Source of the DNA: a phage
Sequence record: PQ878354.1
Length of the DNA stretch: 342 nt
Strand: one strand, 5' to 3'
A model generated the notes under the pieces. The model did no database searches. It was not told the origin of the DNA and saw only the letters and a list, made by a program, of their open reading frames with translations. Both the position numbers and the translations under genes were made by a program. This document shows positions 1 to 342 of the stretch, one piece after another; within the stretch, counting starts at the first letter, position 1, and the number at the start of each line of letters is the position of its first letter.

Positions 1-342
1 CAACCAAGTTGGTACAGAAGCCTTCTACAACGAAGCAGACACTGGCTTCTCTTCACTTGCTGGTACAGACGACACAATCGGTGGAGAACATCGTTCAGCA
101 AATGCTACCTACTCAATTCCAGGTACAACTGCTCAAACAACTCTTCTCGCCCAAGCTAACGTCTATAACTATAACCAAGCAATGACCACAGCTAATGCTG
201 AAGGTCTTGGTTCTAACGAATCACTCGTGTTCCCAGAAATGTCTTTCTCAATCGAGAAGGTTACAGTTACTGCTCGTACACGTGCTCTAAAGGCTGAATA
301 TTCACTAGAACTCGCTCAAGACCTAAAGGCAATCCATGGTCT
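1..342 (+). CDS. g23: Major capsid protein, T4 gp23-like (Gp23 superfamily); internal fragment, partial at both ends
   Basis: Seen in sequence: the frame with codons starting at position 2 (last complete codon 338-340) has no stop across all 113 codons. The other two forward frames have stops (e.g. TAA 157-159; TGA 183-185) and all three reverse frames are interrupted repeatedly. Translation: NQVGTEAFYNEADTGFSSLAGTDDTIGGEHRSANATYSIPGTTAQTTLLAQANVYNYNQAMTTANAEGLGSNESLVFPEMSFSIEKVTVTARTRALKAEYSLELAQDLKAIHG. Established knowledge (recalled, not searched): the C-terminal 36 residues, PEMSFSIEKVTVTARTRALKAEYSLELAQDLKAIHG, align without gaps to T4 gp23 NEMGFRIDKQVIEAKSRQLKAAYSIELAQDLRAVHG at about 21/36 identities. 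The T4 vertex-protein paralog gp24 carries a related but more divergent version (roughly ...LKTGITVELAQDLEANG...), so gp23 is the better match. The gene symbol is given by homology to T4 gene 23; the name used in this genome is unknown. Confidence 0.85.

What the first reader, a model, noticed from the sequence alone, without database searches (positions are those of the whole stretch)
1..342. Window is an internal fragment of a T4-type major capsid protein gene, indicating phage or prophage DNA
The single open frame encodes a protein whose C-terminal part matches the conserved core of T4 gp23 (about 58% identity over 36 aa by my recalled alignment), while the upstream ~75 aa align poorly. That pattern fits a genuine but distant member of the T4 superfamily (for example cyano-, marine or other non-enterobacterial T4-like myoviruses) rather than a close T-even relative. 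The sequence is viral structural DNA, not a cellular housekeeping locus.
Basis: partly seen in the sequence, partly recalled or inferred. Interest (0 to 1): 0.45.

Follow-up and report, generated by a model that had tools for sequence, protein, structure and literature searches.

The report
Fragment of T4-type phage capsid gene
The 342 bases are an internal piece of the major capsid protein gene (g23) of an uncultured T4-like phage, covering the stretch routinely used as a marker for phage diversity, so the finding is correct but ordinary.

Summary
Only frame +2 (nt 2-340, 113 codons) is open. It matches Pfam Gp23 (PF07068) at E=4e-22, 79.6 bits against a cutoff of 24.4.

The window is 91.8% nucleotide and 96% amino-acid identical, without gaps, to a 455-aa gene on a 6.8-kb metagenome contig (L081). 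That gene lies in the order g21 protease, g22 scaffold, g23, g3-like, uvsY, uvsW. dN/dS between the two is 0.075.

The window belongs to a 13-member cluster of uncultured phages (98-100% bootstrap). The nearest cultured relative is Stenotrophomonas phage DLP_6 (64% over the full protein). The cluster sits in a clade with cyanomyoviruses, pelagiphages and phiM12, apart from T4 itself and from the Far-T4 phage RM378.

It is gp23 rather than the vertex paralogue gp24 (profile 368 versus 69 bits). The poorly aligning N-terminal part is inferred to be the surface-exposed E-loop insertion domain, which is known to be variable. The whole window lies inside the classic MZIA1bis/MZIA6 g23 amplicon.

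The "prophage" option has no support. This is a new member of a known kind, of low interest.

The parts
2..340 (+). Internal fragment (113 codons, no start or stop) of a g23-type major capsid protein gene. It corresponds to residues 119-231 of the 455-aa protein of its closest full-length relative.
   Evidence: Only open frame. Pfam Gp23 79.6 bits. Gapless 91.8% nt and 96% aa match to L081:2760-3101 inside ORF 2407-3774. dN/dS 0.075.
2..28 (+). Semi-conserved N-terminal anchor NQVGTEAFY. By alignment it is the start of the linker leading into the insertion domain.
   Evidence: The xQxGxEAFY motif is shared across the DLP_6, cyano and pelagi clade in the alignment. The Glu aligned with window residue 6 (E124 of P0121) is invariant in the 44 homologues of alignment A2, and the Tyr aligned with residue 9 (Y127) is nearly invariant.
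29..232 (+). Variable, indel-rich stretch (window aa 10-77), inferred to be the surface-exposed E-loop insertion (I) domain and its linkers. It is about 35-45 aa shorter than in T4.
   Evidence: The alignment shows lineage-specific indels here, and T4 residues about 136-179 have no counterpart. 26 of 77 sites vary within the 90% cluster against 24 of 378 elsewhere, Fisher p=9e-10. dN/dS is 0.36-0.47 here against 0.07 in the rest of the gene. The domain's role comes from PMC9546572 and PMC4621102.
233..340 (+). Conserved core PEMSFSIEKVTVTARTRALKAEYSLELAQDLKAIHG (window aa 78-113). It is inferred to be the return linker, a P-domain strand and the start of the spine helix.
   Evidence: 21/36 identical to T4 gp23 residues 248-283. 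1 of 36 sites varies within the cluster. Many columns are invariant in the 44 homologues. The assignment to secondary-structure elements is inference, because the AlphaFold model was too poor to use.

Best explanation
The window is an internal piece of the g23 gene, the orthologue of T4 gene 23, which encodes the major capsid protein of a T4-like contractile-tailed phage. The phage is uncultured. Its lineage is represented in public metagenomes by a cluster of 13 near-identical 455-aa proteins, and its nearest cultured relative is Stenotrophomonas phage DLP_6. It sits on the cyanophage, pelagiphage and phiM12 side of the T4 superfamily. How it works follows from homology to T4 gp23 and is inferred, not shown here. 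The protein has the HK97 fold and forms the hexameric capsomers of the head on a gp22 scaffold. The gp21 protease trims it, and the shell then expands. The first two thirds of the window encode the insertion domain, which is grafted into the E-loop position, lies on the outer surface across the neighbouring subunit, and tolerates substitutions and indels. The last third encodes conserved core elements that lead into the spine helix.
For: Family: Pfam Gp23 E=4e-22; PHROG 138 major head protein; solved T4 gp23 chains at E about 1e-7; 2388 phage records hit, annotated as major capsid or major head protein. Real coding gene: 28 nt differences from L081, 22 of them at codon position 3; 20 synonymous against 4 non-synonymous codons; dN/dS 0.075. 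Orthology to gp23 rather than gp24: window 52 bits against 28 bits; lineage profile 368 bits against 69 bits on PDB chains. Context in near-identical relatives: g15-g16-g17-g18-g19-g20, then g21-g22-g23-g3-like-uvsY-uvsW-g47-g46, then g45, the same order as in DLP_6 and P-SSM2. Phylogeny: window plus cluster 98-100% bootstrap; inclusion in the DLP_6/Kyanoviridae/pelagiphage/phiM12 clade 96-98%; T4, Vibrio nt-1 and Aeromonas AS-sw fall outside and RM378 is basal. The neighbouring portal protein also has DLP_6 as best cultured hit, at 59%. Insertion-domain role: PMC9546572 and PMC4621102.
Against: The window has neither start nor stop codon and no flanks of its own, so the synteny is borrowed from relatives that are 82-96% identical in protein. 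No structure could be obtained for this lineage (AlphaFold mean pLDDT 39.3), so the assignment of window residues to structural elements rests on sequence alignment to T4 and on the literature. The neighbour-joining trees use a simple distance model, and nodes between the cluster and DLP_6 or phiM12 have only 48-76% support. Host and biome are unknown, because the tools give no sample metadata.
Confidence: 0.95

Rival explanations
1. The fragment comes from a gp24-type vertex protein gene, the pentamer-forming paralogue of gp23, and not from the major capsid protein gene.
For: gp24 shares the fold and the ELAQDL motif. The window aligns to T4 gp24 at 28 bits, 13/29 identical.
Against: The match to gp23 is stronger for the window (52 against 28 bits) and far stronger for the lineage profile (368 against 69 bits). 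In relatives the gene directly follows g21-g22, as g23 does in T4, DLP_6 and P-SSM2. T4 gp24 is only 21% identical across the window.
Confidence: 0.01
2. The sequence is prophage DNA or a domesticated capsid gene inside a bacterial or archaeal chromosome, not the genome of a lytic phage.
For: 34 related loci sit in assemblies labelled as bacterial or archaeal genomes, including one isolate assembly, Nonlabens xiamenensis 1Q3. One database protein is labelled Staphylococcus haemolyticus.
Against: Those 34 relatives are only 34-54% identical over most of the window (up to 75% over about half of it). Nearly all are metagenome bins, into which phage contigs are often mis-binned (my general knowledge). 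The four contigs of the window's own cluster (6.8, 24.5, 34 and 4.9 kb) carry only T4-type structural, recombination and replication genes, with no Pfam integrase hit among the called genes and no cellular genes. T4-like phages are known only as lytic viruses (established knowledge, not tested here).
Confidence: 0.02
3. The window is a non-functional or artefactual sequence, such as a PCR chimera between population variants or a decaying pseudogene copy.
For: The window lies wholly inside the standard g23 amplicon. It mixes residue states seen in different cluster members (H30 as in P0121, D23 as in P0248) and has a unique E73-S74 pair.
Against: There are no stops or frameshifts in 113 codons. 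It aligns without gaps to L081. Differences are overwhelmingly synonymous (dN/dS 0.075). The mixed states all fall at sites that vary naturally within the cluster.
Confidence: 0.02

Closest known systems
T4 gp23 (major capsid protein, Pfam PF07068; PDB 5VF3, 6UZC, 7VS5)
   Same: Same family and, by profile alignment, homologous along the full length. Conserved core EMxFxIxK...SRxLKAxYSxELAQDLxAxHG. Same position after the g21 protease and g22 scaffold genes in relatives. In the profile alignment the lineage consensus Leu-Leu-Glu-Ala lines up with T4 Leu-Thr-Glu-Ala at residues 62-65. From my own knowledge, not tested here, T4 Glu65 is the gp21 cleavage site.
   Different: About 36% tblastn identity (41.6% over aligned MAFFT columns) for the full protein and 33% over the window. 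The protein is 455 aa against 521 aa. T4 residues about 136-179 of the insertion-domain region have no counterpart. Downstream gene order differs: g3-uvsY-uvsW here, segD-g24 in T4.
Stenotrophomonas phage vB_SmaS-DLP_6 major head subunit (KU682439)
   Same: Nearest cultured relative for both g23 (64.2% full length, 52% over the window) and the portal protein (59%). Same order g18-g19-g20, then g21-g22-g23, then g3-like-uvsY-uvsW.
   Different: Grouping with the window's clade has only 66-72% bootstrap support. The insertion region is 13 aa shorter (100 against 113 aligned positions). GC of the region is 54% against about 40%. DLP_6 has an extra exonuclease gene after g23.
T4-like cyanophages and pelagiphages (Kyanoviridae: P-SSM2, S-PM2, S-SRM01, HTVC008M, Mosig, Melnitz), the 'Exo-T-even' or 'Cyano-T4' group
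   Same: Same well-supported clade (96-98%). 58-65% identity over aligned columns for the full protein. Same module order through uvsW, g47 and g46.
   Different: The window's cluster is not nested within any sampled Kyanoviridae genus. No photosynthesis genes were seen in the 34-kb contig, which covers only part of a genome. Cyanophage insertion regions are 4-11 aa longer than the window's.
Far-T4 phages (Rhodothermus phage RM378 and lake or marine clades 1-5; Roux et al. 2015, PMC4360716)
   Same: Uncultured aquatic T4-superfamily lineages first seen through g23 fragments, with a conserved core flanked by variable surface insertions.
   Different: The RM378 capsid protein is only 29% identical and branches basally. 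Far-T4 capsid proteins are about 15% longer than Near-T4 and Cyano-T4 ones, whereas this one is 455 aa, at or below the lengths of the cyanophage proteins compared. phoH lies next to the capsid gene in Far-T4 clades 1 and 4 and is absent from the neighbourhood here.

Membership tests
Pfam Gp23 family (PF07068) | Score above the curated gathering threshold of the family model | tested here: met
   79.6 bits against a cutoff of 24.4, E=4e-22, for the 113-aa fragment. 494 bits over model positions 1-375 of 376 for the full-length relative.
gp23 orthologue (hexon-forming major capsid protein) as opposed to gp24 (vertex paralogue) | Closer to gp23 than to gp24 in sequence | tested here: met
   Window: 52 against 28 bits. 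Lineage profile: 368 against 69 bits. T4 gp24 is the most distant sequence in the window-region alignment, at 21%.
gp23 orthologue (hexon-forming major capsid protein) as opposed to gp24 (vertex paralogue) | Gene lies directly downstream of the prohead protease (g21) and scaffold (g22) genes | tested here: met
   Met in relatives that are 82-96% identical (L081, L197, L215, L216). The window itself has no flanks.
gp23 orthologue (hexon-forming major capsid protein) as opposed to gp24 (vertex paralogue) | N-terminal propeptide removed by the gp21 protease | not testable with these tools
   This region lies outside the window. In the profile alignment the lineage consensus Leu-Leu-Glu-Ala aligns with T4 residues 62-65 Leu-Thr-Glu-Ala, which is suggestive only. 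That T4 is cleaved after Glu65 is my own knowledge. Cleavage needs protein chemistry.
HK97-fold capsid protein with an E-loop insertion domain | Three-dimensional fold | tested here: inconclusive
   The AlphaFold2 model of P0121 with 44 homologues had mean pLDDT 39.3 and pTM 0.21, so it was not used. The fold is inferred from full-length profile homology to solved T4 gp23.
T-even phages proper (Straboviridae, Tevenvirinae) | Groups with T4, Aeromonas and Vibrio T4-like phages in a g23 phylogeny | tested here: not met
   T4, nt-1 and AS-sw form a separate branch. The window's clade excludes them at 96-98% bootstrap. Identity to T4 is about 36%.
Kyanoviridae (T4-like cyanophages and pelagiphages) | Placement inside the family by genome-wide criteria | tested here: inconclusive
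   It shares a 96-98% supported g23 clade that also contains the unclassified DLP_6 and Emdodecavirus phiM12. No complete genome of the lineage is available, and internal nodes have 48-76% support.
Far-T4 phages | Monophyly with RM378 and the Far-T4 clades; capsid protein about 15% longer; phoH near the capsid gene in clades 1 and 4 | tested here: not met
   RM378 is 29% identical and basal. The protein is 455 aa. No phoH appears in the neighbourhood. The criteria come from PMC4360716. Only RM378, and not the lake clades, could be placed in the tree.
Prophage | Integration in a host chromosome (integrase, attachment sites, host flanks) | tested here: not met
   There are no integrase Pfam hits and no cellular genes among the called genes of the cluster's contigs, up to 34 kb. 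The absence of flanks in the window itself limits this test.

The most novel reading that the evidence does not exclude
The window's 13-member cluster, together with its 70-75% identical environmental relatives, may be an uncultured genus-level or higher lineage of T4-like phages with an unknown host. Its capsid-surface insertion domain is a hot spot of microdiversity: a third of its sites vary within a 90%-identity cluster, and dN/dS is 5-7 times that of the rest of the gene. That pattern could reflect diversifying pressure on the exposed capsid surface, for example from a decoration protein or from adhesion to particles or hosts, and not just relaxed constraint.
Probability: 0.3. Interest if true: 0.25.

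Novelty: new member of a known kind. Interest (0 to 1): 0.1.

Why it matters
The window adds one more allele to a marker gene that has been surveyed in seawater, lakes and soils since 2005. Its practical value is taxonomic: it flags the DNA as coming from a T4-like virus, most likely lytic, of the DLP_6 and cyanophage-side clade, whose nearest cultured relative is only 64% identical in capsid protein. That marks a lineage still lacking an isolate and a known host. The concentration of variation in the surface insertion domain matches what is already known for gp23-type proteins.

Tried and rejected
1. Structure prediction of the full-length relative P0121 with a 44-sequence alignment gave mean pLDDT 39.3, because the alignment was too shallow at 71-76% identity. 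I discarded the model and ran no fold search.
2. Nucleotide search against cultured phages found only the 3' half (nt 176-342) at 69-73% identity, so DNA-level placement was not possible.
3. The first protein search and the IMG/VR scan found nothing above about 58% identity over the full window. The close relative appeared only in the metagenome contig scan.
4. My first guess at the T4 coordinates for gene 23 was wrong; I corrected it.
5. RM378's capsid gene was not in the first 100 kb of its genome; I found it in the last 30 kb.
6. I considered gp24, prophage or cellular origin, Far-T4 membership, and chimera or pseudogene. Each is rejected or given low weight for the reasons in the rival and membership sections.
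7. I looked for RNA families, promoters, terminators and repeats in the window on both strands and found none.
8. Sample biome and host could not be established, because the tools return no sample metadata.

Full report
OBSERVATION. The window is 342 nt with 45% G+C. Only frame +2 (nt 2-340) is open from end to end, giving 113 aa from NQVGTEAFYNEADTG to ELAQDLKAIHG; all five other frames contain stops. From base composition, the chance that 113 codons stay open is about 0.003 per frame. The translation matches Pfam PF07068 (Gp23) at E=4e-22, 79.6 bits against a gathering cutoff of 24.4, covering model positions 45-167 of 376. It also matches PHROG 138 'major head protein' at 1.6e-21. Among solved structures, the only significant hits are T4 gp23 chains (6UZC, 8GMO, 8T9R, 5VF3) at E about 1e-7, and only query residues 66-113 align, to T4 236-283.

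BLASTP aligns residues 67-113 to T4 237-283 at 23/47 identical. The last 36 residues are 21/36 = 58% identical, and the first 77 are 16/72 identical in a global alignment. No Rfam family, promoter-like or terminator-like site, or repeat is present on either strand.

IS IT A REAL GENE? A scan of metagenome contigs found Ga0181348_1003643 (L081, 6,838 bp), which matches all 113 residues at 96%. The nucleotide alignment has no gaps (window 1-342 = L081 2760-3101) and 28 differences, which is 91.8% identity. Of these, 22 fall at third codon positions, giving 20 synonymous and 4 non-synonymous codon changes (D23N, H30N, E73S, S74V). Nei-Gojobori dN is 0.024 and dS is 0.320, so dN/dS is 0.075. This is the signature of a protein-coding gene under purifying selection. 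It argues against a pseudogene or a chance open frame.

CONTEXT, BORROWED FROM NEAR-IDENTICAL RELATIVES. In L081 the matching ORF (2407-3774, 455 aa) scores 494 bits over the whole Gp23 model. Upstream lie a Peptidase_S77 prohead protease (g21) and a T4_CASP scaffold protein (g22). Downstream lie a 174-aa tail-tube-like protein (g3-like), UvsY and a UvsW helicase.

The protein belongs to a 90%-identity cluster of 13 sequences from JGI and ENA metagenomes, and the window is 82-96% identical to its members. Longer contigs of the cluster extend the picture. L197 (24.5 kb) and L215 (34 kb) carry g15, g16, g17 terminase, g18 sheath, g19 tube, g20 portal and three small ORFs, then g21, g22, g23, the g3-like gene, uvsY and uvsW. 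L215 continues with a Metallophos nuclease (g47-like), an SMC_N protein (g46-like), a peptide deformylase and a gp45 sliding clamp. The same order around g23 occurs in Stenotrophomonas phage DLP_6 and Prochlorococcus phage P-SSM2. In T4, by contrast, g23 is followed by segD and g24. None of these contigs carries a Pfam integrase hit among its called genes, or any cellular gene.

GP23 OR GP24? The window scores 52 bits against T4 gp23 and 28 bits against T4 gp24. A profile of 44 full-length homologues scores 368 bits (E=5e-109) on solved gp23 and 69 bits (E=3e-18) on gp24. Together with the position after g22, this makes the gene the g23 orthologue.

WHICH LINEAGE? Against cultured phages, the window's best full-length matches are 51-56% identical: cyanomyoviruses such as Bellamy, S-B43 and P-SSM2, with Stenotrophomonas DLP_6 giving the best E-value. 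The full-length relative is 64.2% identical to DLP_6. It is 59-62% identical to Methylophilales phage Melnitz, Pelagibacter phages Mosig and HTVC008M, many cyanomyoviruses and Sinorhizobium phiM12. Identity falls to 40-42% for Ackermannviridae and about 36% for T4 and its close relatives.

Neighbour-joining trees with 200 bootstraps give the following support:
- The window groups with its cluster at 98% (window columns only) and 100% (full-length alignment).
- That cluster groups with 70-75% identical environmental proteins at 76-88%.
- DLP_6 joins this group at 66-72%.
- All of these fall in one clade with Kyanoviridae, the pelagiphages, Melnitz and phiM12 at 96-98%.
- T4, Vibrio nt-1, Aeromonas AS-sw, Vi01 and P10VF lie outside that clade.

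The Far-T4 reference phage RM378 is only 29% identical and branches basally. The other features reported for Far-T4 are a capsid protein about 15% longer and phoH beside the capsid gene (PMC4360716), and neither is present here. The neighbouring portal protein independently gives DLP_6 as the best cultured hit, at 59%. The lineage therefore sits on the 'Exo-T-even' or 'Cyano-T4' side of the superfamily. It has no cultured member and no known host. G+C of its contigs is 39-40%.

WHY THE FIRST 75 RESIDUES ALIGN POORLY. The multiple alignment shows that window residues 10-77 fall in a region full of lineage-specific indels, and that T4 residues about 136-179 have no counterpart in this lineage. 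In T4, gp23 has the HK97 fold plus an insertion (I) domain. Long linkers connect this domain at the position equivalent to the E loop. It protrudes from the capsid surface, lies on the neighbouring subunit of the same capsomer, and its linkers help form the Soc binding sites (PMC9546572). In phage phiM9 the E-loop insertion domain (aa 125-180) is the part of gp23 that varies most. It is extended in T4 and minimal in phiM12 (PMC4621102).

By position, window residues 10-77 correspond to this domain and its linkers, and residues 78-113 correspond to the conserved return strand and the start of the spine helix. This assignment is an inference from alignment. My attempt to model the protein failed (mean pLDDT 39.3) and I did not use the model.

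Variation within the population fits the inference. Among 12 full-length cluster members, 26 of 77 sites vary in this stretch, against 1 of 36 in the conserved part of the window and 23 of 342 in the rest of the protein (Fisher p=9e-10 for the stretch against everything else). Between sub-lineages, dN/dS is 0.36-0.47 in this stretch against 0.07 in the rest of the gene. These values indicate relaxed constraint. They do not show net positive selection.

RELATION TO THE g23 MARKER. The standard primers MZIA1bis and MZIA6 (sequences taken from PMC4796948) find their best sites in L081 at 2692-2716 (2 mismatches) and 3139-3163 (5 mismatches). These define a 472-bp amplicon, and the window (2760-3101) lies entirely inside it. 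The window is thus the stretch of g23 that diversity surveys have sequenced for two decades. Database neighbours named 'major capsid protein [Myoviridae environmental samples]' reflect this.

MECHANISM. Shown here: family membership, orthology to gp23, purifying selection, the T4-type head-module context in close relatives, and the phylogenetic position. Inferred from T4: the protein assembles as hexamers on a gp22 scaffold, is processed by the gp21 protease, and expands into the mature shell. In the profile alignment the lineage consensus Leu-Leu-Glu-Ala aligns with T4 residues 62-65, Leu-Thr-Glu-Ala; that T4 is cleaved after Glu65 is my own knowledge. The insertion domain would lock neighbouring subunits together and form the exposed surface.

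RIVALS. A gp24-type vertex protein is excluded by the score differences and by the synteny. A prophage or cellular origin has only weak support: distant homologues occur in assemblies labelled as bacteria or archaea. Nearly all of those are metagenome bins, and the window's own cluster shows only phage genes. A chimera or pseudogene is unlikely given the intact frame, the gapless alignment and the low dN/dS, though I cannot exclude a mosaic of natural variants.

VERDICT. The feature is an ordinary fragment of a well-known marker gene from an uncultured lineage, so it is a new member of a known kind. Interest is 0.10.

Noticed in passing
window 29-232; residues 128-195 of the 455-aa proteins P0121 and P0242-P0252: Within a cluster that is at least 90% identical overall, amino-acid variation is concentrated in the insertion-domain stretch: 26 of 77 sites against 24 of 378 elsewhere. 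dN/dS there is 0.36-0.47 against 0.07 in the rest of the gene. This is a microdiversity hot spot on the inferred capsid surface.
   Followed up: partly
L215:19155-19670 (+): A peptide deformylase gene (PF01327) sits between the g46-like gene and the gp45 clamp gene in the 34-kb contig of the window's lineage. It is a possible auxiliary metabolic gene.
   Followed up: no
L161-L194 (genome-contig hits), e.g. L168 NZ_RMVE01000006.1 and L166/L176 NHGE01: T4-type capsid genes occur in assemblies labelled Euryarchaeota, Methanobacteriota, Poseidoniales, Thermoleophilia and others. One is on a 188-kb contig of the isolate assembly Nonlabens xiamenensis 1Q3. These are probably phage contigs mis-binned into MAGs or co-sequenced with the isolate, and the Nonlabens contig could be a whole phage genome.
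   Followed up: no
P0239, P0089, P0100; PV340856.1, KY945241.1, MH107246.1, KJ019143.1: Several Gp23-family proteins carry misleading public names: 'ATP-binding protein', 'uncharacterized iron-regulated membrane protein', 'hypothetical protein, partial [Staphylococcus haemolyticus]', and 'head vertex precursor' for what is g23.
   Followed up: no
L197:6575-8050, L215:6479-7993, L081:28-393: Three small ORFs (about 93-108, 264-292 and 121 aa) lie between the portal and prohead protease genes and have no Pfam hit. The 121-aa ORF also has no PHROG hit. In T4 this position holds the prohead core genes 67 and 68.
   Followed up: no
P0121 (model md8830704829f): AlphaFold2 with 44 homologues at 71-76% identity failed to fold this Gp23 (mean pLDDT 39). 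Only the N-terminal 50 residues, probably the propeptide helices, were confidently predicted. A more diverse alignment is needed.
   Followed up: no
L081:6312-6731 (+), L215:13930-14349: The 139-aa ORF after uvsW weakly matches PHROG 471 ('methylamine utilization'). A gene with the same annotation follows uvsW in P-SSM2, so even this small gene is syntenic with cyanophages.
   Followed up: partly
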